The notes under the pieces were generated by a model that was not told where the DNA came from, made no database searches, and saw nothing but the letters and a program-made list of their open reading frames with translations. A stretch of DNA of 64,000 nucleotides from NCBI GenBank assembly GCA_038064695.1, contig JBBTSO010000001.1, forward strand, positions 85,932-149,931. The letters are read 5' to 3'. The position numbers and the translations under genes were made by a program. The DNA is from Patescibacteria group bacterium (GTDB lineage: Bacteria > Patescibacteriota > Minisyncoccia > Phycocordibacterales > Phycocordibacteraceae). Shown one piece after another: positions 3,391 through 64,000 of this stretch. How positions within the stretch are numbered: position 1 is the first letter of the stretch; the number at the start of each line of letters is the position of its first letter.

Positions 3391-3755
3391 GAATCAAACA
3401 TTTCTCAGAACTCGATGCTTGGAAGAAAGGGCACACGCTCGTTCTTCTTGTCTACGAATATACAAAAAATTTTCCTGATGATGAGCGGTTCGGTCTAGTT
3501 AATCAAATGCGCAGAGCTGCCGTATCAATTACCTCAAATATTGCCGAAGGCTTTGGAAGAACAACCATCAACGATAAAGTACATTTCTATACCATGGCAA
3601 AGACGTCGCTTTCAGAGATTGAAAACCAAATGCTAATAGCCAAAGACCTTGACTACGTGGCCACAAATATCTATGAGCAATTTAAAACTCTGGTCGATGA
3701 AGAACATCGCCTCCTGGGGGGTCTAATGAAATCGGCACGTTCAAAAACGCACTAA
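3387..3755 (+). CDS. four-helix-bundle protein of the 23S rRNA intervening-sequence family
   Basis: About 120 aa helical protein (GIKHFSELDAWKKGH...MRRAAVSITSNIAEGFGR) typical of the TIGR02436-like family. ATG at 3387 preferred over TTG at 3369. Confidence 0.7.
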   Translation: MGIKHFSELDAWKKGHTLVLLVYEYTKNFPDDERFGLVNQMRRAAVSITSNIAEGFGRTTINDKVHFYTMAKTSLSEIENQMLIAKDLDYVATNIYEQFKTLVDEEHRLLGGLMKSARSKTH

Positions 3756-11381: not shown

Positions 11382-11831
11382 TTATGCGTGTGAGAGTTTT
11401 CTCCCTCCCAGCATTTTTTTTACTATAGGAACGCCAAATTTAAATCCTACCCCCGCTAGCGCTGTTGCTACTCCCGCCGCCAAAATTGTTTGAGGCATGT
11501 TTGATTTCTGCTTCATAGGAACATACTCGCCCTCCGCGTCGCGTACGTATCCCTGCGCGCGTGCCCACTCGTCATTTTTCATTTGTCCTTCTTCAATATA
11601 ACTTTGGTATTGTCGATTGCCTGCGAGGTCAGTTTTATACCCGAGCTCATCAGTAAAAGGGGAGCGAGTAGGTTTTGCTGCTGGATCAGCATCGCCACTT
11701 TCAAGGTCTATTCCAAGCACTTCACGCACCTCTTCTAAGTTTGAATAAATCGCTACGATTGCTGCTACTGCCGCAACAAGCATTCCACCCATTAAAATAA
11801 AGTTAGGTCGTTCTTTTTTTGTTTCTGCCAT
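11382..11831 (-). CDS. hypothetical membrane protein
   Basis: Two predicted TM helices. No recognised domain. Confidence 0.35.
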   Translation of the reverse strand: MAETKKERPNFILMGGMLVAAVAAIVAIYSNLEEVREVLGIDLESGDADPAAKPTRSPFTDELGYKTDLAGNRQYQSYIEEGQMKNDEWARAQGYVRDAEGEYVPMKQKSNMPQTILAAGVATALAGVGFKFGVPIVKKMLGGRKLSHA

Positions 11832-29135: not shown

Positions 29136-29194
29136 GCTGAGTTTGAATCATAGTATATTAAGCGCCGTTTTTCAAACCGCGGTATAGTTCTTGC

Positions 29195-29473
29195 ATGGGC
29201 GCCGCACTGCACACAATTATTTCCGGGCGAGTACAAATGGTGATGTTTCGTGACTTCACCCAACGTAAGGCTCGTGAACTTGGATTAGTTGGGGAGGTGG
29301 AAAATCTCCCCGACGGTACCGTGCGTGTGTACGCCGAAGGGGAGAAAGAAAAACTTGAAAAGCTCGTTGAACATCTTAATAAAGGGCCTCTGCTTGCACA
29401 TGTTGAGAATGTGGCGGTGTCTTTTTCTGATGCGGTTGGGACCCATAAAGATTTTGTCATTCTATTTGAATAA
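29195..29473 (+). CDS. acyP: acylphosphatase
   Basis: VQMVMFRDFTQRKARELGLVGEVENLPDGTVRV matches the acylphosphatase signature pattern. Confidence 0.75.
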   Translation: MGAALHTIISGRVQMVMFRDFTQRKARELGLVGEVENLPDGTVRVYAEGEKEKLEKLVEHLNKGPLLAHVENVAVSFSDAVGTHKDFVILFE

Positions 29474-36857: not shown

Positions 36858-36882
36858 AAACATCTGACACTATACAAACAAT

Positions 36883-44485: not shown

Positions 44486-47368
44486 ATGAATGAGGAAGTT
44501 CAGAAATCTGAATCCGCGTTACGGGAAGAGAAGATTTTAGAGTTTTGGCACGACAGAGATATTTTCGCAAAAACCCTGCAGAAAAAATCCCCCAAGGGTG
44601 AGTTTGTGTTTTACGATGGGCCGCCCTTTGCGACGGGGCTTCCTCACTACGGACATATTCTGGCGTCGGTTATCAAAGACACCGTGCCGCGGTACTTCAC
44701 CATGCGCGGGTACCACGTGCCGAGAGTGTGGGGGTGGGATTGCCACGGACTCCCGATAGAAAATATTGTTGAAAAAGAGCTCGGATTCAAACATAAAAAA
44801 GAAATCCGCGAGTATGGAGTGGCAAAGTTTAATGAAACCTGTCGTGAACGTGTTTTAACCTACACATCGGAGTGGGAAAAAATTATTCCTCGCATCGGGC
44901 GATGGGTAGATATGAAAAACGCGTACCGAACCATGGACAAGTCGTTTATGGAAAGCGTGTGGTGGGTTTTTAAATCAATTTATGACAAGGGGTTGGTGTA
45001 CGAGGATTACCGTTCAATGCACGTTTGCCCGCGATGTGAAACAACGTTAAGTCAGCAAGAGGTATCAGAAGGATACAAAGACGTAAAAGATATTGCGATA
45101 ACCGTCAAATTTAAATTGAAAAAAAATAACGTGATCGGATTGTCTGGGGATGTGTATGCTCTTGCGTGGACCACGACCCCTTGGACACTTCCTGGTAACG
45201 TTGCCCTCGCAGTAAACTCAGAAATTGAGTACGAAGTATGGGAGAAAAACGGCGAGATGTTACTTGCGTCTAAAAAATACTGGGAGGAGCATCCTGGCGA
45301 TAAACCCGTAACACGCGGGGTATTATCTGGGGTCACTCTCCTTGGTCTTGAGTACGAACCGCCGTTTGATTACTACAAAAACGATACGACACTCAAGAAT
45401 CGCGAAAATGGATGGAAGGTGTACCATGCTGACTTTGTGACGGCAGATGCGGGAACGGGTATTGCGCATGAAGCCCCTGCCTTTGGTGCGGATGACTGGG
45501 AACTTTTAAAGAAAGAAAATCTTCCTTTTGTTCAGCACGTGAATTACGACGGAACCATGAAGACAGAAGTTGCTGCATTTGCGGGGATGGAAGTAAAGCC
45601 ACGCTCTGACGATGACCGAGTTCGTCTTGGTACCGATATCGCTGTCCTCACGTACCTTCAAGAACACAATCTCCTCTTTTTGAAAGAAAATATTACACAC
45701 GCGTATCCTCACTGTTGGCGATGTGATTCACCACTTTTAAATTACGCTACTTCGTCATGGTTTGTAAGTGTAGAAAAAATTAAAGACCGAATGTTAAAGA
45801 ACGCGCAGTCAATCAACTGGTCTCCCAAACATATAAAAGAGGGGAGGTGGGGAAAGTGGTTAGAGGGCGCGCGCGACTGGTCTATTTCACGTCAGCGCTT
45901 TTGGGCGAGCGTCATACCGATTTGGGTATGTGAAACCTGCAAAGAAAAACGTGTGTTCGGTTCAGCGTCAGAGCTTGAAAATGCGAGCGGAAAAAAGGTA
46001 GATGACCTTCACAAGCACATCGTGGATGAAATTACTGTTCCGTGCGCGTGTGGCGGCGTGATGCGACGCGTTTCTGATGTACTCGATACGTGGTTTGATT
46101 CAGGGTCCATGCCGTATGGAGAAAAACACTATCCTTTTGAAAAAAAAGAAGCATTTGACCGTACGTTTCCGGCGCAGTTTATTGCCGAGGGGCAAGACCA
46201 AACGCGAGCGTGGTTTTACTATCTTCACGTTTTTGCGACGGCGCTTTTTAACAAACCAGCCTTTCAAAATGTCATTGTGAACGGGATTATGCTTGCCGAA
46301 GATGGCAAGAAAATGTCTAAAAGGCTTCAAAACTATCCTGACCCAATGAAGGTGGTTGACCGCTACGGCGCAGACGCGCTTCGCTACTACCTCCTCTCGT
46401 CTCCCGTGGTCCAATCAGAAAACTTAAGCTTCGCTGAGAGCGGTGTTGACGAGGTATTGAAAAAACACATCAATCGTTTAATGAATGTGCTCTCATTTTA
46501 CAAACTCTATGAAGACGGAACAAAACGTTCGGGGGAGAGTAAACACGTTCTTGATCGTTGGATATTGCTCCAACTTGATGAACTCGTGTGGGAAATAACC
46601 CGTGCGTATGAGCGCTATGAATTAAACAATGCAGTACGACCGCTCGCGCTTTTTGTTGATGACCTTTCGGTGTGGTATTTGAGAAGAAGCCGAGATCGTT
46701 TAAAAAACAGCAGTGCTGACCAAAAAGCTGCACTCGCGACCCTGCGTCAGGTACTCTATACACTTTCACTGGTGATTGCTCCTGCCATGCCATTTACGGC
46801 AGAATCGCTCTACCAAGAAGTTAAAGAAGGTGACGATCTGGAGAGTGTTCATTTATGTAGTTGGCCTGAAAGACGTAAACCATTCTTTTCTTTCCCTCAC
46901 CACTTTGGCAGATCTCTTAAAGAGTCGCCCCTTATTGCGGACATGAGCGAGGTACGTCGCGTGGTGTCGCTCGCGCTTGAAAAGCGTTCGTCGGTAAACA
47001 TTAAGGTGCGCCAGCCACTGCAGCAGCTCACCGTGAAGGATGAACGGTTGAAAGGGAAATATGAACTTGTAGAACTTATTAAAGAAGAGGTGAATGTGAA
47101 GGACGTGGTGTTTGATAAGAATCTTTCCGAAGATGTTCTCCTAGACACGGCTATCACCGACGCATTAAAAGAAGAGGGAGATGTTCGTGAGTTGGTGCGT
47201 CTCATTCAAGATTTGCGAAAAGCATCAGACCTTTCGCCAAAGGATACAGCGACTCTTACGTTTGCGGGAGATGCTACGCTCTTAGAAAAATACTGGGAAC
47301 AAATTTCAAAGACGACGAACCTTGCGCGATTTGAGCGCGGAGACGAGAACCATGTCACGAAGTCATGA
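44486..47368 (+). CDS. ileS: isoleucyl-tRNA synthetase (eukaryote/archaeal type)
   Basis: FYDGPPFATGLPHYGHIL, KMSKRL and a CP1 editing domain. 960 aa. Confidence 0.9.
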   Translation: MNEEVQKSESALREEKILEFWHDRDIFAKTLQKKSPKGEFVFYDGPPFATGLPHYGHILASVIKDTVPRYFTMRGYHVPRVWGWDCHGLPIENIVEKELGFKHKKEIREYGVAKFNETCRERVLTYTSEWEKIIPRIGRWVDMKNAYRTMDKSFMESVWWVFKSIYDKGLVYEDYRSMHVCPRCETTLSQQEVSEGYKDVKDIAITVKFKLKKNNVIGLSGDVYALAWTTTPWTLPGNVALAVNSEIEYEVWEKNGEMLLASKKYWEEHPGDKPVTRGVLSGVTLLGLEYEPPFDYYKNDTTLKNRENGWKVYHADFVTADAGTGIAHEAPAFGADDWELLKKENLPFVQHVNYDGTMKTEVAAFAGMEVKPRSDDDRVRLGTDIAVLTYLQEHNLLFLKENITHAYPHCWRCDSPLLNYATSSWFVSVEKIKDRMLKNAQSINWSPKHIKEGRWGKWLEGARDWSISRQRFWASVIPIWVCETCKEKRVFGSASELENASGKKVDDLHKHIVDEITVPCACGGVMRRVSDVLDTWFDSGSMPYGEKHYPFEKKEAFDRTFPAQFIAEGQDQTRAWFYYLHVFATALFNKPAFQNVIVNGIMLAEDGKKMSKRLQNYPDPMKVVDRYGADALRYYLLSSPVVQSENLSFAESGVDEVLKKHINRLMNVLSFYKLYEDGTKRSGESKHVLDRWILLQLDELVWEITRAYERYELNNAVRPLALFVDDLSVWYLRRSRDRLKNSSADQKAALATLRQVLYTLSLVIAPAMPFTAESLYQEVKEGDDLESVHLCSWPERRKPFFSFPHHFGRSLKESPLIADMSEVRRVVSLALEKRSSVNIKVRQPLQQLTVKDERLKGKYELVELIKEEVNVKDVVFDKNLSEDVLLDTAITDALKEEGDVRELVRLIQDLRKASDLSPKDTATLTFAGDATLLEKYWEQISKTTNLARFERGDENHVTKS

Positions 47369-50046: not shown

Positions 50047-51453
50047 ATGAGTGAAAACCAAGAAAACGTAATGGAAAAAATTGTGTCGCTCGCCAAAAGG
50101 CGCGGGTTTATTTTTCAAGGTTCTGAAATTTATGGGGGGCTTGCGGGCGTGTATGATTTTGGCCCGAACGGAGTGGAACTTTTAAGTAACATCAAACAGT
50201 CGTGGTGGAAAGCGAATGTGTACGATAAAGAAAACTATTTTGGTATTGATTCTGGAATGTTCAAACATCCCAAAACGTGGGAGGCGTCTGGCCACACGAG
50301 CGGGTTTTCAGACCCACTTGCGGAGTGTAAAAACTGCAACACGCGCATTCGTGTTGATAAAGAGCTCGCCGCGCTTGGTGTAGAGGCGGATGAAAAAATG
50401 TCTGAGAGCGAGCTCAACGAGTTGTTTGACGCGCATCGGGAGAAAATAAAATGCCCTACCTGTGGTAAAAAAGATTTTTCAAAAGTCCGCGCGTTTAACT
50501 TGTTGGTGAAATCAAATCTCGGCGACTTCACTTCCGAAGGTACCGACCCGGTGTACCTGCCGGGCGAGGCGTGCCAGGGAATCTACCTCAACTTTAAAAA
50601 TATTGTGGACAGCATGCACCCGAAAATTCCTTTCGGCGTTGCGCAAATCGGTAAGGCATTTCGAAATGAAATCAGTCCTCGTAACTTTCTTTTTCGTACA
50701 CGCGAGTTGGAACAGGCGGACACGCAGTACTTTGTAAAACCAAACGAAAACAAAGATGCGTACGAAAAAATAAAACAAGAACGCTGGCAGTGGTATCTAA
50801 GTTTGGGCATTGAAGAAAACAAACTGCGTTGGAAACAACATGAAAACCTTGTCTTCTACGCGAAAGACGCGTGGGACATTGAGTACGAATTTCCGGGAGG
50901 GTTTGATGAAGTGGAAGGTATCCACGACCGCACTGACTACGACTTAACCCAGCATATGAAGTTCTCTGGAGTTGACCTACGCTACACCGACCCGGAAACC
51001 GGCGAGAAGTACATTCCGTGGATTCTTGAAACTTCTATGGGTGTGGGGCGCGTATTCCTTGCGGTGCTTGCAAACGCGTACCGCGAAGATGAACTCGGAG
51101 GGGAGAAGCGCGTGTACTTAAAACTTCCTCCGCACCTGGCGCCCGTAAAAGCGTGCGTGTCGCCACTCCTTAAAAACAAACCAGAGTTGGTTGAAAAAGC
51201 GCGGGAAGTCTATGCAACACTCAAAAAAGAGGTTCCACAAATCGTGTGGGACGACAACGGCAATATTGGTAAACGCTACCGCCGTCAAGACGAAATTGGT
51301 ACGCCGTTCTGCATCACCGTTGATTTTGACACCTTGGGCGAACACGCGGAACTAAAAGACACCGTAACGCTGCGCCACCGTGATACTGGAGAACAGGAGC
51401 GTTTGAGTATTGAAGATGTCGTTAAAAAAGTAAAACAGAAAATTACTTTGTAA
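50047..51453 (+). CDS. glyQS: glycyl-tRNA synthetase (alpha2 dimeric type)
   Basis: RRGFIFQGSEIYGGLAGVYDFGPNG, class II motifs, a zinc-ribbon insert and a C-terminal anticodon-binding domain. Confidence 0.85.
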   Translation: MSENQENVMEKIVSLAKRRGFIFQGSEIYGGLAGVYDFGPNGVELLSNIKQSWWKANVYDKENYFGIDSGMFKHPKTWEASGHTSGFSDPLAECKNCNTRIRVDKELAALGVEADEKMSESELNELFDAHREKIKCPTCGKKDFSKVRAFNLLVKSNLGDFTSEGTDPVYLPGEACQGIYLNFKNIVDSMHPKIPFGVAQIGKAFRNEISPRNFLFRTRELEQADTQYFVKPNENKDAYEKIKQERWQWYLSLGIEENKLRWKQHENLVFYAKDAWDIEYEFPGGFDEVEGIHDRTDYDLTQHMKFSGVDLRYTDPETGEKYIPWILETSMGVGRVFLAVLANAYREDELGGEKRVYLKLPPHLAPVKACVSPLLKNKPELVEKAREVYATLKKEVPQIVWDDNGNIGKRYRRQDEIGTPFCITVDFDTLGEHAELKDTVTLRHRDTGEQERLSIEDVVKKVKQKITL

Positions 51454-51459
51454 TTTTTT

Positions 51460-52287
51460 ATGCAAAAAAGTGCTTTGTGGCGTTTTATTTGGCTGCAAGC
51501 TTTCTTTAAAAACTTTCATTACTACATTTCTAATAGAGATGTGTATAGGGCCTTCAGAAGGGCTGAGCAAAAAGGAATGTTTAATCTTGGCACTGGCAAA
51601 ACCGAACTACGTGCAGAGGTTCAGAATCCAAACATAACTGATATTTTAATTAAAGAATTTAAACCCCACGAAAACGTTTTCCAGCTCACCATTACCGATC
51701 ATTATAAGATTCAAAAAGAACGCGACTTAGTAAATAAAAAATATGAGAAACAGCTAGAGAGAAGCAAGGAAACCGCAGGCCCAGGCATAGGAGGGGAAGT
51801 TTTTGCAGTTGATGGATTGATTTATATTGGCACTTTTGTTTTGACGTTTTTTATACAGTGGATAACACAACATCTTGCTGGAGAAATAGATGATAAAGCG
51901 TGGTCACTATTTAAAAAATCATTTATAAATGTTTTTGAAAAGTTAAAAAAACAAAAAACTGAAGGCAGTATTGCCATTGTCACATCTTATAAACCAGAAC
52001 AAGCTCCAAGACCAACCATTTACTTTGTTCTCCCGACATCTATTTCTACAGAAAAGGAATTAATGGAAATATTAGAAACAATTAGAAATTTTACTTACGT
52101 TATTAACTCTATACACCAGGAGTTTAATGGGCGAATATCAGTTTACTCCATATGTTTTGATACTGAAGCCAAGATATGGAGGCTCGGTACTTCCGGTGAG
52201 TGGAATCCGGAAGAATCAGAGATTCAGGAAAACATAGAAAAGGTGATTCATGAAAAAACAAACATTCAAATCATAATTCGAAAATAG
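51460..52287 (+). CDS. hypothetical protein (low-GC gene)
   Basis: 275 aa. No recognised domain. Visibly AT-rich relative to its neighbours. Confidence 0.35.
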   Translation: MQKSALWRFIWLQAFFKNFHYYISNRDVYRAFRRAEQKGMFNLGTGKTELRAEVQNPNITDILIKEFKPHENVFQLTITDHYKIQKERDLVNKKYEKQLERSKETAGPGIGGEVFAVDGLIYIGTFVLTFFIQWITQHLAGEIDDKAWSLFKKSFINVFEKLKKQKTEGSIAIVTSYKPEQAPRPTIYFVLPTSISTEKELMEILETIRNFTYVINSIHQEFNGRISVYSICFDTEAKIWRLGTSGEWNPEESEIQENIEKVIHEKTNIQIIIRK

Positions 52288-52314
52288 CGTATAACTCTTT
52301 GATATAGTGCCGGT

Positions 52315-52872
52315 ATGAAAAAAGTTTTTATTCTCCACGGGTGTCCGTCTTTTGAAAAAGAAGGTCCAGAGCAGACCTATGCGAAACACTGGATGCCGTG
52401 GATAGAGAGAGAACTTATTGAAAGGGGATATGAAGTAGTGCGCCCCATGATGCCAGAGCCGTGGGCGCCGAAGTACGCTGCATTTAAAGAAGAATTTGAG
52501 AAAAACGAAATACCTGATGATGCTATTTTGATTGGCCACTCTTGTGGCGCCGCGTTTTTAGTTCGGTGGCTTGGAGATACAAAGCACAAGGCCTCACAAT
52601 TAATTTTAGTCGCTCCTTGGAAAATTCCTGATGAAGGTGATGTGGGGCGGCAAAAATACTATGGCTACGACATAGACAAAACAATTCCATCTCGAGTGCC
52701 GAATATCGTGATGTTCACTTCTGACACTGAGGAAGAAGAGGGGAAAGAGAGTGTAAAAATTTTTCACGAAGCGCTCGGCGGAAAGTTGATAGAATTAAAA
52801 AACAAAGGACACTACAAGCTTGGGGAAATGGGCGGAGAAGAGTTTCCTGAACTTCTTGAAGAAATTTTATGA
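52315..52872 (+). CDS. RBBP9/YdeN-family serine hydrolase (alpha/beta fold)
   Basis: LIGHSCGAAFL nucleophile elbow and the family-typical length of about 185 aa. Confidence 0.65.
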   Translation: MKKVFILHGCPSFEKEGPEQTYAKHWMPWIERELIERGYEVVRPMMPEPWAPKYAAFKEEFEKNEIPDDAILIGHSCGAAFLVRWLGDTKHKASQLILVAPWKIPDEGDVGRQKYYGYDIDKTIPSRVPNIVMFTSDTEEEEGKESVKIFHEALGGKLIELKNKGHYKLGEMGGEEFPELLEEIL

Positions 52873-53591
52873 ACCTCATCGTTGATGCAAAACTTCAGGA
52901 AACAATTGATGCCATAACATTGAACTTTAATCCGGTGTCAATTTTTCTTTATGGTTCGCGTGCTCGTACCGATGCACTTGATCAAAGTGATTATGAAATC
53001 GGAGTACTTTATAAAAGAGAAAATAAAATATCACGTCTAGAGTTAAAAGCTATAAACCCACACGAAGAGGTCGTTATTTATCCATTTGAATATGAGGATT
53101 TTCTGGCGTACAAAATTGATACGCCCTTCCCTGAAGGGATTTATTTTAGAGAGCTTATTGGTGTGGGAAAAACTTTGTATGGTGAGGAGGTTCTTGAACA
53201 CCTAGATTCGCCCAAAATCACTACACTGGATTTATTGCAACGTGTCCGTTTTGATACCGCTTTTGCACTTGCGGCCATTTTGTCAAAACGGAATGGCGAC
53301 GAAACTACTGCAGCAACAGAATTTTCAAAATCATGTCTGTTCGGGGTGCGTTGTCTGATTATTCTTGAGACAAAACGATTTCCGTTCACCTATGACGATA
53401 TTTATGAACAGTCTAAATTACTCGACTTAGGTGAGTATGGTCACGTTGTTGAACACGCTTTTGCTGTACGAAAAGGAACAGAGAGGCTAGACGAAAATTT
53501 GCTTTATCGCAATGTATCGTTGTTAAATAAAATTATTAAAAACCGAATTGTAGATTTAATGGGGAAAGAGGGGAATAAAGGATTGTTGTAA
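52869..53591 (+). CDS. nucleotidyltransferase (Pol-beta superfamily) with fused helical C-terminal domain (KNTase/ANT(4')-like architecture)
   Basis: LYGSRARTDALDQSDYEIGVLY (GS...SD.D motif) plus a helical substrate-binding-like C-terminus. Confidence 0.5.
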   Translation: MNLIVDAKLQETIDAITLNFNPVSIFLYGSRARTDALDQSDYEIGVLYKRENKISRLELKAINPHEEVVIYPFEYEDFLAYKIDTPFPEGIYFRELIGVGKTLYGEEVLEHLDSPKITTLDLLQRVRFDTAFALAAILSKRNGDETTAATEFSKSCLFGVRCLIILETKRFPFTYDDIYEQSKLLDLGEYGHVVEHAFAVRKGTERLDENLLYRNVSLLNKIIKNRIVDLMGKEGNKGLL

Positions 53592-53596
53592 CTTAT

Positions 53597-53956
53597 ATGA
53601 ACCTCATCGTTGATGTACAGGCGAAAGATTTGAATAGGGCAGTGAAGTTTTATACTGATGTTCTTGGGTTAAAGTGTCGTATTCATGAAAAAGATTGGGC
53701 GGGGATAGTGGTTGGGGATGCGGAAATACATTTGTACGTTGACGGGGGTGTCACTGAAGGAGTTGAATTTTATGTGGATGACATTGACACAGAAGTGAAA
53801 CGTCTTTCGGCGCTTGGGGTACAGTTTTTTGCAGGAAGCGATAAACCAAGTTTTATAAAGGCAGATGAACAAAACATCAGTGAGTTTCCATTCGGCCGCT
53901 TAGCATACTTCAAAGACTCCGAAGGCAACGAACTCGCTCTCGTTAAAGATTTTTAG
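53597..53956 (+). CDS. VOC family protein (glyoxalase / bleomycin-resistance fold)
   Basis: KFYTDVLGLK...HLYVDGG...FKDSEGNELALV. Confidence 0.7.
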   Translation: MNLIVDVQAKDLNRAVKFYTDVLGLKCRIHEKDWAGIVVGDAEIHLYVDGGVTEGVEFYVDDIDTEVKRLSALGVQFFAGSDKPSFIKADEQNISEFPFGRLAYFKDSEGNELALVKDF

Positions 53957-53996
53957 TAAGGAGTTTTGAAGGTATAATGCTTTTTGAAAATGTTTT

Positions 53997-54992
53997 ATGA
54001 AAACTCTAGCATTTTTTACGCCATCATTGATTATCTCCGTGTTCGTTTTGGGAGCGGTGTTTTGGTACGGGGGAGTGGAAGCACTTTTTTTGGCGGCGCT
54101 TCTTTCAGTCTTGGAAGTAACCCTCTCCTTTGACAACGCGGTGGTGAACGCCAAAGTGTTGGCGCGCATGACCCCTGCATGGCAACAACGCTTTCTTACG
54201 TGGGGGATTTTGATCGCCGTGGTAGGGACACGGCTCATCTTGCCTATTTTAATTGTGGCGGTAACCGTGTGGACCTCCCCGTGGGTGATTGCCAAACTCG
54301 CGTTTTTTGATCCTGAAGCGTATGGGCACCTGTTAGAAGGTGCGCGATACGCCATTAATTCATTTGGCGCATCATTTCTGCTTATGGTGTCTTTAAAATA
54401 TTTTATGAATGCTTCAAAGGACCGTCACTGGCTCCATGTGATTGAACATTATCTTGCGCGTTCAGGGAAGATTGAATCTATCGCGGTTGCGGTAGTGTTG
54501 ATAGCCCTCACCGCCGTTTCGTTTTTGGTGCCTGACGAAGCATCAACAGTGGTACTAGTTGCCGGTATTGTGGGGATAGTTATTTTTATTTTAATGGAAG
54601 GTATCACTAGTTCGTTTTCGGTTTCTACCGAGGAAGTAGAAAAGGCAGGACTCGCGATGTTTATTTACCTTAACGTCTTAGATACCGCATTTTCATTGGA
54701 CTCTGTCGTTGGTGCGTTTGCGCTTTCAAATTCCATTCCGGTTATTGTAGCGGGCTTAGGTATTGGTGCGTACTTTGTTCGTACACTCACCATTTACCTT
54801 GTAAAGAAAAAAGCACTCGACACCATTATTTTTCTAGAGCATGGTGCTCACTGGGCAATTTTTGGACTTGCTGCTTCAATGTTAGTGGGGACGCTGGTTG
54901 AAGTTCCTGAAATTATTACAGGAGGTATCGGTCTCTTTTTTGTCGTTGCTGCCTATTACTCATCGTTACTCTTAAAGAAAAAAGAAGTATGA
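53997..54992 (+). CDS. TerC/DUF475-family integral membrane protein
   Basis: LSFDNAVVNA (SxDN-type motif). Eight to nine TM helices. Confidence 0.5.
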   Translation: MKTLAFFTPSLIISVFVLGAVFWYGGVEALFLAALLSVLEVTLSFDNAVVNAKVLARMTPAWQQRFLTWGILIAVVGTRLILPILIVAVTVWTSPWVIAKLAFFDPEAYGHLLEGARYAINSFGASFLLMVSLKYFMNASKDRHWLHVIEHYLARSGKIESIAVAVVLIALTAVSFLVPDEASTVVLVAGIVGIVIFILMEGITSSFSVSTEEVEKAGLAMFIYLNVLDTAFSLDSVVGAFALSNSIPVIVAGLGIGAYFVRTLTIYLVKKKALDTIIFLEHGAHWAIFGLAASMLVGTLVEVPEIITGGIGLFFVVAAYYSSLLLKKKEV

Positions 54993-55201
54993 CTCTAAAA
55001 ACACTGCTTAAATTTCTGCGAACATTTTCTATCGTTATCGGACTCGTCCTCATTTGGCGGGGAATTTGGTACATTTTGGATTGGATAGACTTCACCTTTT
55101 TAGCGAGTCAGCACGTGTGGACAGCGGTCGGGGGGATTGTGTTGGGGCTCCTTATTCTCTACATTCCCGACGGAGATTTGAAAGAAATTGAAAAGTTGTA
55201 A
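54989..55201 (+). CDS. small membrane protein
   Basis: 70 aa with two TM helices. Start overlaps the stop of the preceding gene (translational coupling). Confidence 0.3.
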   Translation: MTLKTLLKFLRTFSIVIGLVLIWRGIWYILDWIDFTFLASQHVWTAVGGIVLGLLILYIPDGDLKEIEKL

Positions 55202-55281
55202 TCTTTGTCCTAAAAAATACAATACGTCAGTTTTGTGCCGGCACACCGGTGAGTGGTTGACAGGGTTGATAGAATAAGAGT

Positions 55282-55821
55282 ATGAAAACCGTTGCCGTTC
55301 TTGTAGGTAGTCTGAGGAAAGAGTCGTTTAACCGATCGCTCTTTGAGGCGTTTAAAAAGTATGCTCCCGCTGACCTTCACTTCCAAGAGGTGTCTCTTAC
55401 GATGCCTCTTTATAATGCTGATGTGGAGGAGCGTGGAATTCCTGAAGAAGTTCAACGCGCAAAAGAAATAATTGACCGCGCCGATGGGGTGCTTATCGTC
55501 ACCCCTGAATATAACCGCTCACTACCGGGGGTGTTAAAAAACGCCATCGACTGGACTTCGCGCCCTGGTGGAAAAAGTTCGTGGAAGGGGAAACGAGTTG
55601 CGGGAGCGGGTGCTACCAACGGGTCACTAGGCACGGCACCAGCACAACAACACCTCCGTTCGATATTGGTATATCTTGACACCCGCGTTATGGGTCAGCC
55701 GGAGTTTTATCTCTCTGGGGTTAAAGAAAAAATTGATACCGATGGAACTGTCCGCGATGTGCCTACCAAAGAGCGTGTAGAAAAATTTCTTGCGTCATTT
55801 CTGGCGTTTTTAGAGGCATAA
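55282..55821 (+). CDS. NAD(P)H-dependent FMN reductase
   Basis: VAVLVGSLRKESFNRSL and IVTPEYNRSLPGVLKNAIDW. Confidence 0.8.
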   Translation: MKTVAVLVGSLRKESFNRSLFEAFKKYAPADLHFQEVSLTMPLYNADVEERGIPEEVQRAKEIIDRADGVLIVTPEYNRSLPGVLKNAIDWTSRPGGKSSWKGKRVAGAGATNGSLGTAPAQQHLRSILVYLDTRVMGQPEFYLSGVKEKIDTDGTVRDVPTKERVEKFLASFLAFLEA

Positions 55822-55847
55822 AGTTGTCTTTGTGTTACTATTTGCCT

Positions 55848-56921
55848 ATGGCAACGAAGGCGCCTTCTCCCATTATTATTCATATTTCTCCGACCAGCGT
55901 TCTCTCCACGATCGCTATCGCGCTTGCTATTTGGCTCTTGTTTTACCTCAAGGATCTCGTTCTTATTGTCTTAACCGCCATTGTCATTGCTTCGTCCATT
56001 GAACCCGCGGTCTTATGGTTTATGCGCTATCGGGTAATTCGCCCGGCGGCGGTGGCACTGGTATATGCGCTAGTGTTTGGGTTTTTGTTTGGGTTTGCAT
56101 ACCTCCTCTTTCCACCGCTGATTGAAGAAACAAGTGGATTTGTTTCAACACTTCCAAAGTACATTGAGACATTTAATTTGAGCAGCCTTCTTTCAAATCA
56201 GTTTGCCGCTACCACGCAAGAAGTTACCTCTACCGCTTCACTTGCCACCACCTTGAGCGAGTTCCAGAGTATTTTCACTGCAACAGGTGAAGGTGCATTC
56301 CGTGCTGTTGCCGGTGTGTTCGGCGGGGTGTTCTCCTTTTTCCTCATTCTTCTCTTATCGTTCTATTTTGCCGTTCAGGAAACAGGCATTGATGACTTCC
56401 TTCGCGTCGTGACCCCTATCAAACACCAAAAGTACGCCATTGGCCTTTGGCGCCGCTCACAAGTAAAAATTGGGCTCTGGATGCAGGGACAACTCCTCCT
56501 ATCGCTCATTGTGGCAGTGTTGACCTACCTTTGGCTCACCGTGCTCGGCGTGCCGTACGCCCTTCTCCTTGCCATATTTGCGGCTATTGCTGAGCTAGTT
56601 CCGGTGTTTGGCTCCTTGGCGGCGGCAATACCCGCTATCGCGGTTGCAGGGACTTTTGGGGGCCTCCCTACGGCTCTTTTGGCGGGAGGTGGGTACCTCA
56701 TCATCAACCAAATTCAGGGAAACTTAATTTACCCCCTCGTGGTGAAGCGTGTGGTGGGAGTACCTCCGCTTTTGGTTATTTTGGCGTTGATTGCCGGCGC
56801 GCAGTTGGCAGGATTTTTGGGTGTTCTTCTTTCAGTGCCAATCGCGGCGGCTTTGCAAGAGTTGGTTTCTGATGTAGAAAAGAGCAAGCGCGAACACGAA
56901 CTCGCTGAACAGAATGGATAA
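55848..56921 (+). CDS. AI-2E family transporter (PerM/YhhT-like)
   Basis: Eight-TM topology and a conserved LVPVFGSLAAAIPAI region. Confidence 0.65.
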   Translation: MATKAPSPIIIHISPTSVLSTIAIALAIWLLFYLKDLVLIVLTAIVIASSIEPAVLWFMRYRVIRPAAVALVYALVFGFLFGFAYLLFPPLIEETSGFVSTLPKYIETFNLSSLLSNQFAATTQEVTSTASLATTLSEFQSIFTATGEGAFRAVAGVFGGVFSFFLILLLSFYFAVQETGIDDFLRVVTPIKHQKYAIGLWRRSQVKIGLWMQGQLLLSLIVAVLTYLWLTVLGVPYALLLAIFAAIAELVPVFGSLAAAIPAIAVAGTFGGLPTALLAGGGYLIINQIQGNLIYPLVVKRVVGVPPLLVILALIAGAQLAGFLGVLLSVPIAAALQELVSDVEKSKREHELAEQNG

Positions 56922-60762: not shown

Positions 60763-61206
60763 ATGTATCTCAATAAAGTCTTTGTTGCGGGTAATCTCAC
60801 TCGTGACCCGGAGTTAAAAGCGCTTCCGAGCGGATCGTCAGTCTGCACCTTTAGTGTTGCCACGAACCGTGTATGGTTTGATCAAAATAAACAAAAACAA
60901 GAAGCGGTAGAGTATCACAACATCGTGGTGTTTGGCCGACAAGCTGAAACATCCGCGCAGTATTTAAAAAAGGGAAGTGGGGTGTTGATAGAAGGGCGCA
61001 TACAAACTCGTAGTTGGGAGAAAGAAGGGCAAAAACAGTACCGCACTGAAATCGTTGCTGAGCGCGTTCAGTTTGGTGCACGTGCAGGGACTGCAGGGCC
61101 TACCCAAGAAGTGCGTGGCGGCGACCAGCCAGGCCAGGAGGGAAGTAGCGCGGGAGGTATAGAGTACCCTACTGAAGAAATTAGCCCTGACGATATTCCA
61201 TTTTAG
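60763..61206 (+). CDS. ssb: single-stranded DNA-binding protein
   Basis: OB-fold start VFVAGNLTRDPEL and a C-terminal DDIPF tail. Confidence 0.9.
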   Translation: MYLNKVFVAGNLTRDPELKALPSGSSVCTFSVATNRVWFDQNKQKQEAVEYHNIVVFGRQAETSAQYLKKGSGVLIEGRIQTRSWEKEGQKQYRTEIVAERVQFGARAGTAGPTQEVRGGDQPGQEGSSAGGIEYPTEEISPDDIPF

Positions 61207-61581: not shown

Positions 61582-62157
61582 TTATGATTTACTCACCCTT
61601 TCTACGTACTCTCCGGTTTCGGTGTTGAGGCGCACAATGTCGCCTTCATTAATGAAAAGGGGAGTATTCACGACTGCTCCTGTTTCAAGCACTACCTGCT
61701 TTGAGCCGCCTTGGGCGGTATTTCCTTTAACCGCGGGAGGTGCCTCTTTAACCATAAGCTCTACTTTAATAGGAATTTGAATACCAATGACGGATTCGTC
61801 CCACACGAGGGCGGTGACTACGCTCTTTTCCTTTACGTACTGAATTTGTTGCCCCACCATTTCCTCTCCGAGAGCAATGCGGTTTTGAGGTTTTCCTACC
61901 TCATGAAACCACACCTCACCTTTTGCTTTATAAATATAGACAAACTCTTTTTTCTCCACGTCAGCTTCTTCCACCGTTTCAGTTTGGTGGAATGAAATTT
62001 CCAGTACTTTGCCTGTTTTGATGGCGCGGAGCTTCGTTTGGTTCACCGGTTTTCGTTGCTGTTTTCTAAAAACCCACGAAGAAAGAACCTCAAAGGGTTC
62101 GTTGTTATAAATGATCACTTTTTTAGGAAGGATTTCGTTGTATGAAAGTATTGCCAT
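61582..62157 (-). CDS. efp: elongation factor P
   Basis: Three-domain EF-P pattern (GEYVERVSK at the C-terminus; VWDESVIGIQIP in domain II). Start set to MAILSYNEI. Confidence 0.75.
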   Translation of the reverse strand: MAILSYNEILPKKVIIYNNEPFEVLSSWVFRKQQRKPVNQTKLRAIKTGKVLEISFHQTETVEEADVEKKEFVYIYKAKGEVWFHEVGKPQNRIALGEEMVGQQIQYVKEKSVVTALVWDESVIGIQIPIKVELMVKEAPPAVKGNTAQGGSKQVVLETGAVVNTPLFINEGDIVRLNTETGEYVERVSKS

Positions 62158-62246
62158 GTAACCTTTGATGAGTTCGTCGAGTAGTAACAGTAGTAGCCTG
62201 CGCCAGGGAGTACTATACACCACAATACGACGCGCGCGCTACCTCT

Positions 62247-62880: not shown

Positions 62881-63240
62881 ATGAAAACTGACCAGGATAT
62901 TACCGATACTATTATGCGCCGCGTGCACGTCGTGCACGCGCGCCGTATGGTGCTGGCGCCCCGCACGCGCTTTTTTGCATTGGTAGTGGTGACGTTTGCG
63001 CTTGGTATTTCAGTTTCAATTAAGAACGTGATTGGGAATGCGCTCGCAGCCGCTTCTTCATGGAGTGGTTTTTTGTTTTTTATTGGAGATGCATTCCGTT
63101 CAACGGAATTTTTTGTTCAACTCTTTATACTGGGCGCAATCATCCTTGCCGTGTTTTCAATTCGCGACGTGTGCGTGTACTGTGTTGCTCACGACTTCAT
63201 TCCGTTTCTTCGCCACGCCGAACACGAACGCTCGGCCTAA
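62881..63240 (+). CDS. putative anti-sigma factor (membrane protein co-transcribed with the ECF sigma)
   Basis: Position immediately downstream of the ECF sigma gene. N-terminal cytoplasmic segment plus three TM helices. Assigned from context only. Confidence 0.4.
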
Positions 63241-64000
63241 CCCGTCTTCAATTTCTCGCGTATCTCTTTGAGTAATTTGTTGGCGATTGGTTTGTTTTCA
63301 CGCAAATAGGTTCGCGCCGCGTCATACCCGCGTCCCAATTTTTCTTCTCCGTACGTGTATGAGCTCCCCGTTTTAGTAACGAGTGCGTATTTTTCGCCAA
63401 GCGCCAAGAGCTCTCCCTCTTGAGAAATACCCTCGTTGTACATGAGGTCAAACTCGGTTTGTTTAAAGGGCGCGGCAACTTTATTTTTTACCACTTTCAC
63501 CCGCACGCGGCCTCCCACCACTTCCTCGCCTTTCTTAATTTGCGCAATGCGGCGAATATCCATACGAACTGAGGTGTAGAACTTGAGGGCTTTTCCTCCC
63601 GGAGTTGTTTCAGGGTTGCCAAACATCACGCCAATTTGCATACGGATTTGGTTAATGAAAATAACCACGGTCTTACTTTTTGCGACAATAGCGGTTAGTT
63701 TGCGGAGCGCTTGGCTCATCAAGCGTGCTTGGCGTCCTACGTGTGTCTGCTCCATATCGCCCTCAATTTCGGCGCGGGGAGTGAGCGCGGCGACGGAGTC
63801 AATGACGATGACGTCTATTTTTCCGCTTCTGACCAGCGACTCTACAATATCCAACGCCTGTTCTCCGGTATCGGGCTGTGAAACCAAGAGGTCGTCTATT
63901 TGTACCCCAAGGCGTTTTGCATACTCAGGATCAAGCGCGTGCTCAGCATCAACGAACGCGCAGATGCCGTTCTTTTTTTGTGCTTCAGCAACAATATGGA
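63237..64000 (-). CDS. recA: recombinase RecA (C-terminal two thirds; N-terminus lies beyond the window end)
   Basis: [51 protein letters not shown] and SVRMDIRR. The reading frame stays open to position 64000. Confidence 0.9.

What the first reader, a model, noticed from the sequence alone, without database searches (positions are those of the whole stretch)
52866..53616. Two adjacent unrelated genes begin with the identical 19-bp segment ATGAACCTCATCGTTGATG (MNLIVD)
The nucleotidyltransferase gene (52869) and the VOC gene (53597) both start ttATGAACCTCATCGTTGATG, differing only afterwards. Identical starts on unrelated proteins suggest that the NTase gene was inserted by recombination at the VOC start and duplicated it. 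Start-switching of this kind resembles cassette exchange.
Basis: seen in the sequence. Interest (0 to 1): 0.5.

Follow-up and report, generated by a model that had tools for sequence, protein, structure and literature searches.

The report
Gene start copied from its neighbour
A nucleotidyltransferase gene in an uncultured groundwater bacterium lost its own start and promoter and now begins with a copy of the first 19 bases of the next gene. This is a clear but mechanistically ordinary scar of a recombination event in a fast-changing stretch of the genome.

Summary
ATGAACCTCATCGTTGATG occurs exactly twice in the window, at the starts of the NTase gene (52869) and the VOC gene (53597). Chance predicts 0.01 matches.

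The direction of copying is clear. All 120 VOC homologues begin M-x-(L/A/V/I)-(I/V)-(I/V)-D, so the segment is native to VOC. NTase homologues begin M-D/E-x-K-L and are 4-5 residues shorter. Only the window protein and one 84%-identical relative begin MNLIVDAKLQ.

Three relatives (L006, L215, L216) have NTase directly before VOC with the normal NTase start and a promoter box of its own. One relative (L209) has hydrolase followed by VOC with no NTase.

The window therefore looks like a recombinant of two forms of this locus. The joint is an in-frame illegitimate one at a GAT(G) microhomology, resembling homology-facilitated illegitimate recombination. NTase now sits inside the hydrolase operon, with an ATGA stop/start overlap.

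The fused gene is under purifying selection (dN/dS 0.06). The six captured residues form an unstructured tail.

Nothing supports integron-like cassette exchange. There is no room for an attC site, no recombinase gene, and no other gene carries this start. This is an instructive but ordinary recombination scar.

The parts
52303..52308 (+). TATAGT -10-like box 6 nt before the hydrolase ATG. It is the likely promoter of the hydrolase-NTase*-VOC unit.
   Evidence: TATAGT-N5-9-ATG occurs 5 times in the window against 0.93 expected. The same box precedes the canonical-start NTase genes in L006 and L215. Its function is inferred, not shown.
52315..52872 (+). Ser_hydrolase (YdeN-type, PF06821) gene. 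Its TGA stop overlaps the NTase* ATG (ATGA).
   Evidence: The same 3' end (GAAGAAATTTTATGA) is found in L210, and its orthologue is directly followed by VOC in L209.
52868..52887 (+). Left copy of the 20-nt repeat: a VOC-type 5' end (codons 1-6 plus 1 nt) that now serves as the start of the NTase gene.
   Evidence: Homology with the L209 hydrolase-VOC junction runs continuously through this segment.
52885..52888 (+). Recombination joint at the GAT(G) microhomology. VOC-type sequence lies to the left and canonical NTase sequence (CAAAACTTCAGG...) to the right.
   Evidence: Alignment with canonical NTase starts ATGGATCCAAAACTTCAGG (L006, L216). The Ala codon GCA may be a hybrid of VOC GTA and NTase CCA (inference).
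52869..53591 (+). NTase* gene: a two-domain nucleotidyltransferase of 240 aa with a captured MNLIV(D) N-terminus.
   Evidence: Pfam Polbeta 27.3 bits against a 26.9 cut-off. The AF2 model has pLDDT 96.7, with residues 1-6 in coil at low confidence and helix 1 starting at residue 7. The fold resembles ANT-type adenylyltransferases and Hailong HalB. dN/dS is 0.064 against L005.
53596..53615 (+). Right copy of the 20-nt repeat: the native start of the VOC gene.
   Evidence: M-x-(L/A/V/I)-(I/V)-(I/V)-D begins (or lies just after a short predicted N-terminal extension in) all 120 VOC homologues. The same DNA start is found in 11 related loci.
53597..53956 (+). VOC (glyoxalase / bleomycin-resistance superfamily) gene, the conserved anchor of the locus.
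   Evidence: Pfam PF00903 30 bits against a 20.6 cut-off. It is present in every related locus between GlyRS and the AI-2E transporter.

Best explanation
The repeat is the scar of one illegitimate, in-frame recombination joint between two structural forms of a variable locus in a clade of Patescibacteria.

Form A has VOC directly behind an upstream gene (hydrolase-VOC, as in L209). Form B has a promoter-bearing NTase with its normal start (M-D/E-x-K-L) directly before VOC (as in L006, L215, L216).

I propose that the crossover on one side was homologous, either within VOC and downstream or within the hydrolase and upstream. The crossover on the other side joined VOC nucleotide 19 (...GTTGATG) to NTase codon 2/3 (ATGGAT[C/G]|CAAAA...) at a 3-4 nt microhomology, GAT(G).

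The product is hydrolase-ATGA-ACCTCATCGTTGATG|CAAAA...NTase...TAA-CTTAT-ATGAACCTCATCGTTGATG...VOC. VOC's first 19-20 nt are therefore present twice. NTase lost its own ATG, terminator and promoter. It is now translated from the captured VOC start, which overlaps the hydrolase stop codon and so allows translational coupling inside one operon.

Shown: the repeat, the direction of copying, the existence of both parental forms, the position of the joint, and purifying selection on the fused gene. Inferred: the recombination pathway (of the homology-facilitated illegitimate recombination type), which partner was donor and which recipient, and the expression benefit.
For: 1. Direction of copying. 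All 120 VOC homologues carry M-x-(L/A/V/I)-(I/V)-(I/V)-D at or just after the predicted start. NTase homologues are 235-236 aa and start MD(K/P)KL or MEKKL. Only the window protein and P0002 (84% identical) are 240 aa and start MNLIVDAKLQ.
2. Form B exists. L006, L216 and L215 have a -10-like box (a terminator hairpin plus TGCTATAGT in L006 and L215, CATAAT in L216), then a canonical NTase, then VOC. The NTase-stop/VOC-start junction TAAYTTAT-ATG is shared with the window in L006 and L216.
3. Form A exists. L209 has hydrolase directly followed by VOC. Homology with the window runs from the hydrolase 3' end straight through ATGAACCTCAT.GT.GA.G.
4. The joint. Window sequence right of ...GATG matches canonical NTase from codon 3 onward. 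GAT or GATG is shared by both parents, within the 3-10 bp microhomology range reported for HFIR junctions (PMC3240628).
5. The canonical ATG is gone (GTT in its place), so the captured ATG is the only start that yields the conserved helix 1.
6. The fused form is old and functional. It is shared with L005 (dS 1.38, dN/dS 0.064). In L005 it sits behind a different upstream gene (Methyltransf_33), again with an ATGA overlap.
7. No mobile-element machinery. The flanking genes of 39.5-64 kb that were identified are housekeeping genes. The 19-mer is absent from viral contigs.
Against: The exact predicted parent, hydrolase-ATGA-VOC with overlapping stop and start, was not found. L209 has TAA plus 4 nt before the VOC ATG.

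The NTase tree is (window,(L005,L006)), with 84.7% nt identity for L005-L006 against 79.3% and 77.2% for the window pairs. The fused start is thus found in two lineages that are not each other's closest relatives. That requires later spread of the fused 5' end by homologous recombination, loss in L006, or two independent events. The mosaic signal in the first ~100 nt of the L005 gene is only suggestive (permutation p = 0.011 with the junction sites, 0.097 without).

In classical HFIR, recipient DNA is deleted rather than duplicated by 19 nt. The age of the event cannot be read from the repeat: synonymous conservation of VOC codons 2-6 is 0.66 against 0.50 for the gene body. Only about a dozen related loci could be retrieved.
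Confidence: 0.65

Rival explanations
1. Template switching within a single genome (MMBIR/FoSTeS-like). The ancestor had hydrolase-ATGA-p107-terminator-promoter-NTase-VOC. The replicating strand jumped from the hydrolase end (TATGAA) to the VOC start (TATGAA), copied about 14 nt, then jumped back to NTase codon 2 at GAT(G). This deleted p107 and the promoter and left a templated copy of the VOC start.
For: L210 has hydrolase-ATGA-p107 with the same hydrolase 3' end as the window. L215 has p107-terminator-promoter-NTase-VOC. A combined ancestor is therefore plausible. Microhomologies exist at both switch points (ATGAA and GAT(G)).
Against: It needs two switches across roughly 1.2 kb and 0.7 kb. 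No locus with the full hydrolase-p107-NTase-VOC order was found. It does not explain the same fused start behind a different upstream gene in L005 without further recombination.
Confidence: 0.12
2. Tandem duplication followed by loss. An unequal crossover at GAT(G) between the VOC start and the NTase start duplicated the 728-nt unit. This gave canonical NTase, then VOC start fused to a second NTase, then VOC. The upstream copy with its promoter was later lost or replaced.
For: From established knowledge, microhomology-mediated tandem duplications are among the most frequent spontaneous rearrangements in bacteria. This route produces exactly this joint and the 728-nt period.
Against: It needs a second event whose endpoint falls exactly at the ATG of the second copy. 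No relative with two NTase copies was seen. The sequence left of the repeat is homologous to a hydrolase-VOC junction, which this model does not predict.
Confidence: 0.1
3. Cassette-like mobility. The unit 'NTase body + VOC nt 1-19' excises as a circle by recombination between the 20-nt repeats. It then re-enters at the VOC start of other genomes by a single crossover, so the VOC start acts as a docking site.
For: The same fused NTase* lies behind two different upstream genes, the hydrolase in the window and Methyltransf_33 in L005. In both, identity begins exactly at the ATG. The first ~100 nt of the L005 gene look window-like while the rest looks L006-like. In L005 a Fic/RhuM gene is also inserted exactly after a VOC-type ATG.
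Against: Only NTase* carries the copied start, in the window and in about 110 kb of related loci. There is no recombinase, no attC-like element and no room for one. Nineteen to twenty nt is at or below the usual minimum for RecA-dependent exchange (established knowledge). Breakpoints at the VOC ATG are expected anyway, because VOC is the conserved anchor next to a variable region.
Confidence: 0.08
4. Coincidence or convergence. Both proteins independently start MNLIVD because of a common N-terminal signal or a preferred initiation context.
For: Short hydrophobic beta-strand N-termini (MK.IV.) are common here, for example p107 MKGIVIE and unk304 MKIIVT. One gene in L007 starts ATGAACCTC by apparent chance.
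Against: The identity is 19/19 at the nucleotide level, against 0.01 expected matches. 118 of 120 NTase homologues lack the segment and are 4-5 residues shorter. In the model the segment is an unstructured addition before helix 1.
Confidence: 0.01

Closest known systems
Homology-facilitated illegitimate recombination (HFIR), described in Streptococcus pneumoniae, Acinetobacter baylyi and Pseudomonas stutzeri (summarised in PMC3240628)
   Same: One crossover lies in homologous DNA and the other is an illegitimate joint at a 3-10 bp microhomology (here GAT or GATG). The outcome is a non-homologous gene gained or swapped next to a conserved anchor gene, inside an otherwise syntenic housekeeping backbone.
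   Different: Here 19-20 nt of the anchor gene are duplicated, and the joint is in frame, so it creates a working chimeric start. Classical HFIR products usually carry a deletion in the recipient. The pathway (transformation, RecA dependence) is inferred, not observed. The organism is an uncultured Patescibacterium.
Displacement arrays at T6SS effector-immunity, Rhs and CDI loci (e.g. Vibrio cholerae, PMC5361080)
   Same: A conserved gene part serves as the anchor, and incoming modules are joined to it by one homologous and one illegitimate event. This leaves duplicated or orphaned gene ends as a record of past insertions.
   Different: In those loci the constant part is the 5' body of a large toxin gene, and the variable parts are 3' toxin tips plus immunity genes, often in long arrays. 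Here a single 6-codon start segment of a small enzyme gene is duplicated once. No toxin-immunity logic is evident.
Integron gene cassettes
   Same: A promoter-less gene is inserted in one orientation behind a resident promoter, at a fixed point at the head of a gene row.
   Different: There is no attC, attI or IntI. The repeat is coding sequence of the neighbouring gene. The repeat is not found at other genes. Tested here and not met.
Campbell-type (single-crossover) insertion-duplication
   Same: The inserted DNA ends up flanked by direct repeats of the homology segment.
   Different: The repeat is only 19-20 nt. A non-replicating 728-nt circle would be needed. There is no evidence for such an intermediate.

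Membership tests
Integron gene cassette | attC recombination site (imperfect inverted repeats, roughly 55-140 nt) at the 3' end of each cassette | tested here: not met
   The NTase stop to VOC ATG gap is 5 nt, and hydrolase and NTase overlap by 4 nt. No inverted repeat of that kind was found in 51000-56000.
Integron gene cassette | IntI tyrosine recombinase and attI next to the cassette row | tested here: not met
   The larger + strand ORFs of 39.5-64 kb (and the thymidylate synthase ORF on the - strand) that were scanned or identified by synteny are housekeeping or small-enzyme genes (ThyA, Tmk, SHMT, ArgRS, IleRS, RecO, GlyRS, MetRS, TatD, S6, sigma-70 and others). None is a recombinase. Several smaller ORFs (for example 60763-61206, 61582-62223, 63237-63887), and the rest of the genome, were not scanned.
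Integron gene cassette | The same site recurs at the boundaries of many different cassettes | tested here: not met
   The 19-mer, including its degenerate MNLIVD-coding form, occurs only at VOC and NTase* starts in the window and in 10 related loci.
HFIR product | Short (3-10 bp) microhomology at the illegitimate joint | tested here: met
   VOC ...GTTGATG|TACAG and canonical NTase ATGGATC|CAAAA share GAT (GATG if the parent had Ala at codon 3). The joint is at 52885-52888. The range is defined in PMC3240628.
HFIR product | The other side of the exchanged segment lies in DNA homologous between the two partners (the anchor) | tested here: inconclusive
   Both flanks have homologues in the proposed parental forms: the hydrolase 3' end in L209 and L210, and NTase-VOC in L006, L215 and L216. 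The actual parents and the crossover point are unknown.
HFIR product | RecA-dependent integration of linear DNA taken up by transformation | not testable with these tools
   This needs genetics in a cultivable host. recA is present in the syntenic region of relatives, which is only permissive.
Transposon or IS insertion with target-site duplication | A transposase gene and terminal inverted repeats between the direct repeats | tested here: not met
   The 708 nt between the repeats are entirely the NTase ORF. There are no terminal inverted repeats.
VOC (glyoxalase / bleomycin-resistance / dioxygenase) superfamily, for 53597-53956 | Match to the Pfam PF00903 profile above the gathering score | tested here: met
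   30.0 bits against a cut-off of 20.6. Matches to bleomycin-binding and fosfomycin-resistance equivalogs are far below their cut-offs (25 against 140-260), so no specific function is assigned.
Pol-beta-type nucleotidyltransferase, ANT-like two-domain architecture, for 52869-53591 | GS...D-x-D/E catalytic motif in an N-terminal NTase fold, plus a C-terminal helical domain | tested here: met
   PF18765 27.3 bits against 26.9. G29 and S30 are invariant, and D41 and E43 nearly invariant, in 57 homologues. The AF2 model has pLDDT 96.7. Foldseek hits to AadA, AAD(9), ANT(4') and Hailong HalB have TM 0.45-0.63 and 12-17% identity. Membership in any aminoglycoside-resistance family was not established.

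The most novel reading that the evidence does not exclude
The first 19 nt of the VOC gene act as a portable 'start module'. Promoter-less genes fused to it can move between strains by short-homology recombination at the VOC start and are translated at once by coupling to whatever gene lies upstream. This would be a recombinase-free, cassette-like way of shuffling accessory genes in the reduced genomes of Patescibacteria. Three observations leave it open. The same fused NTase* lies behind two different upstream genes. The L005 gene may have a mosaic 5' end. A Fic gene in L005 is inserted exactly at a VOC-type ATG.
Probability: 0.08. Interest if true: 0.6.

Novelty: new member of a known kind. 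Interest (0 to 1): 0.3.

Why it matters
The locus is an unusually legible record of how a gene is re-wired when it moves inside a compact genome. Both parental arrangements, the exact joint, the microhomology and the functional outcome can all be read from natural sequences. The outcome was the loss of the gene's own start and promoter and the capture of its neighbour's start.

It also shows that the stretch between GlyRS and the AI-2E transporter is a gene-by-gene variable region in this Patescibacteria clade, embedded in housekeeping genes and free of mobile-element genes. That is relevant to how these ultra-small, uncultured bacteria exchange accessory genes. It does not reveal a new mechanism.

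Tried and rejected
1. A scan of GTDB species genomes with a VOC alignment found no close relative (best 68% identity) and gave no useful synteny.
None of the 120 loci encodes VOC or NTase. The single metagenome scan was therefore spent without result.
3. A viral-contig scan for the 19-mer gave 0 hits.
4. In L007 the gene after GlyRS starts ATGAACCTC (MNL), which looked like a second capture. Its orthologue in L211 starts MNPDNK, so this is most likely chance.
5. A 13-nt inverted repeat brackets the NTase* start (52842-52854 / 52891-52903). Only 0.7% of random positions have such a repeat. However, the RNA fold is unexceptional (z = -1.1) and the repeat is absent in L005. I rejected it as a regulatory hairpin.
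6. I tried to date the event from the identity of the two copies. Synonymous conservation of VOC codons 2-6 is only mildly raised (0.66 against 0.50, rank 15 of 112), so the identity is uninformative.
7. The promoter/terminator consensus scan of 51300-54200 gave nothing above background.
8. Sequence searches against PDB and NCBIfam gave no specific function for NTase, and only sub-threshold bleomycin-binding-like matches for VOC.
Full report
**1. The observation**

The 19-mer ATGAACCTCATCGTTGATG occurs exactly twice in the 64-kb window, at 52869-52887 and 53597-53615 on the + strand. Shuffles expect 0.01 matches even when 3 mismatches are allowed. One upstream T is also shared, so the exact repeat is 20 nt. 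Extended further upstream it is 24/26, with a spacing of 728 nt.

Both copies begin the only long ORFs at those positions:
- 52869-53591, 240 aa, a Polbeta/NTP_transf_2 nucleotidyltransferase.
- 53597-53956, 119 aa, a Glyoxalase/VOC protein.

Upstream lies a YdeN-type Ser_hydrolase gene (52315-52872), whose TGA stop overlaps the NTase ATG as ATGA. The only other near-match (3566-3584, - strand, 3 mismatches) lies inside a + strand ORF and starts nothing.

The window comes from a Patescibacteria genome from Hainich groundwater. The same arrangement was assembled independently from several samples.

**2. Which gene owns the segment**

Among the 120 best VOC homologues, every one has M-x-(L/A/V/I)-(I/V)-(I/V)-D at the start or just after a short predicted N-terminal extension. 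The closest homologues read MNLIVDV. This is the first beta-strand of the VOC fold (established knowledge of the family).

Among the 120 best NTase homologues the usual length is 235-236 aa, and the start is MD(K/P)KL, MEKKL or similar. Only the window protein and P0002 (84% identical) are 240 aa and begin MNLIVDAKLQ.

An AlphaFold model built on 57 homologues has pLDDT 96.7. Residues 1-6 are low-confidence coil, and the conserved first helix starts at residue 7. The segment is therefore native to VOC and is an add-on in NTase.

**3. Related loci**

Twelve context look-ups gave the following orders. The backbone IleRS-RecO-CLIPPER-GlyRS ... VOC ... AI-2E transporter-MetRS is conserved. The genes between these anchors vary one by one.

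| Locus | Gene order |
|---|---|
| Window | GlyRS, unknown 275 aa, hydrolase, NTase*, VOC, DUF475, p70, FMN reductase, AI-2E |
| L209 | GlyRS, hydrolase, VOC (no NTase; TAA + ATTT + ATG) |
| L210 | GlyRS, p60, hydrolase (same 3' end GAAGAAATTTTATGA as the window), p107, VOC |
| L007, L211 | GlyRS, unknown 220 aa, VOC, AI-2E |
| L213 | GlyRS, unknown 304 aa, p107, VOC |
| L214 | Fic (139 aa), VOC |
| L006 | terminator hairpin, TGCTATAGT, NTase starting ATGGATCCAAAACTTCAGG (MDPKLQ), TAATTTAT, VOC |
| L216 | CATAAT, NTase MDPKLS, TAATTTAT, VOC |
| L215 | GlyRS, p107, terminator hairpin, TGCTATAGT, NTase MEKKLQ, VOC |
| L005 | GlyRS, Methyltransf_33, NTase* (ATGAACCTCATCGTTGACGCAAAACTC, with ATGA overlap), then TAATTTATATG followed at once by a terminator and a Fic/RhuM gene, then VOC |

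Three conclusions follow:
- NTase directly before VOC is widespread and older than the fused start. The junction is TAAYTTAT-ATG in L006 and L216 (and survives as a remnant in L005); L215 has a different spacer (TTTTAACT).
- In those loci NTase has its own -10-like box and the family's normal start.
- A hydrolase-VOC form without NTase exists.

**4. The joint**

To the left of ...GTTGATG, the window aligns with the L209 hydrolase-VOC junction. Homology runs from the hydrolase 3' end straight into ATGAACCTCAT.GT.GA.G, whereas L210 diverges right after ATGAA.

To the right of the joint, CAAAACTTCAGGAAAC... aligns with canonical NTase genes from codon 3. VOC (GTT GAT G|TA) and canonical NTase (ATG GAT C|CA, or GAT G|CA) share GAT or GATG. 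The Ala codon GCA of NTase* may be a hybrid of the two, since its closest canonical relatives have Pro (CCA).

The canonical ATG is replaced by GTT. The captured ATG is therefore the only start that yields the complete helix 1.

**5. Mechanism**

The simplest reading is one recombination between a form-A allele (upstream gene-VOC) and a form-B allele (promoter-NTase-VOC). One crossover was homologous and the other was an illegitimate in-frame joint at GAT(G).

This is the pattern of homology-facilitated illegitimate recombination, which is described as one homologous end, one illegitimate end, and usually 3-10 bp of microhomology (PMC3240628). A similar process has been invoked for displacement arrays at T6SS and Rhs loci (PMC5361080).

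Two polarities give the same product:
- NTase-VOC DNA entered a hydrolase-VOC genome.
- Hydrolase-VOC-start DNA entered an NTase-VOC genome and deleted what lay upstream of NTase.

I cannot tell which occurred. The pathway itself is inferred.

**6. Consequence**

NTase lost its terminator, promoter and ATG. It now sits inside the hydrolase unit, which has a TATAGT box at 52303. No terminator-like site lies between the genes beyond chance level. NTase* starts at an ATG that overlaps the hydrolase stop.

The fused gene is maintained. Against L005, dN/dS is 0.064 with dS 1.38, similar to the values for VOC and the hydrolase. That the captured start was selected because it already worked in a coupled, internal position is a plausible inference and is untested.

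**7. History and open points**

NTase nucleotide identities are L005-L006 84.7%, window-L005 79.3% and window-L006 77.2%. The two fused genes are therefore not each other's closest relatives over the gene body.

Informative sites suggest that the first ~100 nt of the L005 gene are window-like (11 of 14 sites) while the rest is L006-like. The maximum chi-square permutation test gives p = 0.011 with the three junction sites and 0.097 without them. This would fit spread of the fused 5' end by homologous recombination, but it is only suggestive.

The identity of the two copies in the window does not date the event. Synonymous codon identity among VOC orthologues is 0.66 for codons 2-6 and 0.50 for the rest of the gene.

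**8. The cassette idea**

The relevant gaps are -4 and 5 nt, so there is no room for an attC-like site. No suitable inverted repeats were found. No recombinase was found among the larger ORFs of 39.5-64 kb that were identified. The 19-mer, including its degenerate coding form, occurs only at VOC and NTase* starts in the window and in about 110 kb of related loci. It is absent from viral contigs.

Variable neighbours ending exactly at the VOC ATG are expected anyway, because VOC is the conserved anchor beside a variable region. A weak cassette-like reading remains possible, in which the fused NTase* spreads by short-homology recombination. I put it at about 0.08.

**9. What the genes are**

The NTase model resembles two-domain adenylyltransferases (AadA, AAD(9), ANT(4')) and the Hailong defence enzyme HalB, at TM 0.45-0.63 and 12-17% identity. 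Sequence searches give only the generic NTase domain.

VOC passes the Pfam threshold. Its matches to bleomycin-binding and fosfomycin-resistance models are far below their cut-offs. No specific function is claimed for either protein.

**10. Verdict**

The NTase-VOC adjacency, however, predates the duplication, and the integron-like analogy fails its membership tests. This is a well-resolved natural example of a known kind of event, microhomology-mediated illegitimate recombination that created a chimeric gene start, in a variable locus of an uncultured Patescibacterium. Interest is moderate to low.

Noticed in passing
window 51460-55821; loci L005, L007, L209-L216: The stretch between GlyRS and the AI-2E transporter is variable gene by gene in this Patescibacteria clade. 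VOC and often p70 stay fixed, while single genes between them differ from genome to genome (unknown 275 aa, hydrolase, p107, NTase, Fic, Methyltransf_33, DUF475, DUF1993, DUF4406, C39-like, SAM_HAT_C, FMN reductase). No mobile-element genes are present. The region 51450-54000 has lower GC (0.33-0.42) than its flanks (0.45-0.55).
   Followed up: partly
L005:1855-2925: A terminator plus a Fic/RhuM gene (334 aa) is inserted exactly after a VOC-type ATG. This leaves an orphan TAATTTATATG-TAA behind NTase*, and only TATG is duplicated at the two ends. It is a second, independent insertion at the VOC start codon.
   Followed up: partly
window 52303-52317, 526-540, 11412-11427(-), 29183-29197, 36861-36874(-); also L006:34-51, L215:912-929, L210 several: TATAGT (often TGNTATAGT) lies 5-9 nt before an ATG. 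There are 5 cases in the window against 0.93 expected, and many gene starts in the related loci show the same pattern. This suggests leaderless or near-leaderless transcripts are common in these genomes.
   Followed up: partly
window 52842-52854 and 52891-52903: A 13-nt inverted repeat (12/13 complementary) brackets the NTase* start codon. One arm is in the hydrolase 3' end and the other in NTase codons 8-12, and each arm is native to its own gene. Only 0.7% of random positions are so flanked, but the RNA fold is unexceptional (z = -1.1) and the repeat is absent in L005. It is probably chance. A role in bringing the two partners together cannot be excluded.
   Followed up: yes
L007:2082-5519, L211:74-3508, L213:1-2874 versus window 44486-47368: The IleRS of several relatives is about 1145 aa and carries a histidine-phosphatase (His_Phos_1) domain hit inside the synthetase. 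The window's IleRS is 960 aa and has no such hit. A free-standing His_Phos-like ORF (RHG motif) lies just upstream of NTase in L216.
   Followed up: no
window 50047-51453 versus L007:8020-9345: GlyRS is only 55% identical between the window and L007 (468 aa against 441 aa). The nearby VOC and AI-2E transporter are 86% and 88% identical. Divergence along the locus is therefore very uneven, which hints at recombination or at different GlyRS lineages.
   Followed up: no
window 52869-53956: The NTase has an ANT/AadA-like two-domain fold and also resembles Hailong HalB. The adjacent VOC has weak, sub-threshold similarity to bleomycin-binding proteins. From memory, an ANT(4') gene lies next to a ble gene on plasmid pUB110, so the conserved NTase-VOC pair might be a small-molecule resistance pair. 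This is a lead only.
   Followed up: partly
L007:9342-9356: The 220-aa gene after GlyRS starts ATGAACCTCGATGAG (MNLDED), sharing the first 9 nt with the VOC start, and it overlaps the GlyRS stop (ATGA). Its orthologue in L211 starts MNPDNK, so this is most likely coincidence.
   Followed up: yes
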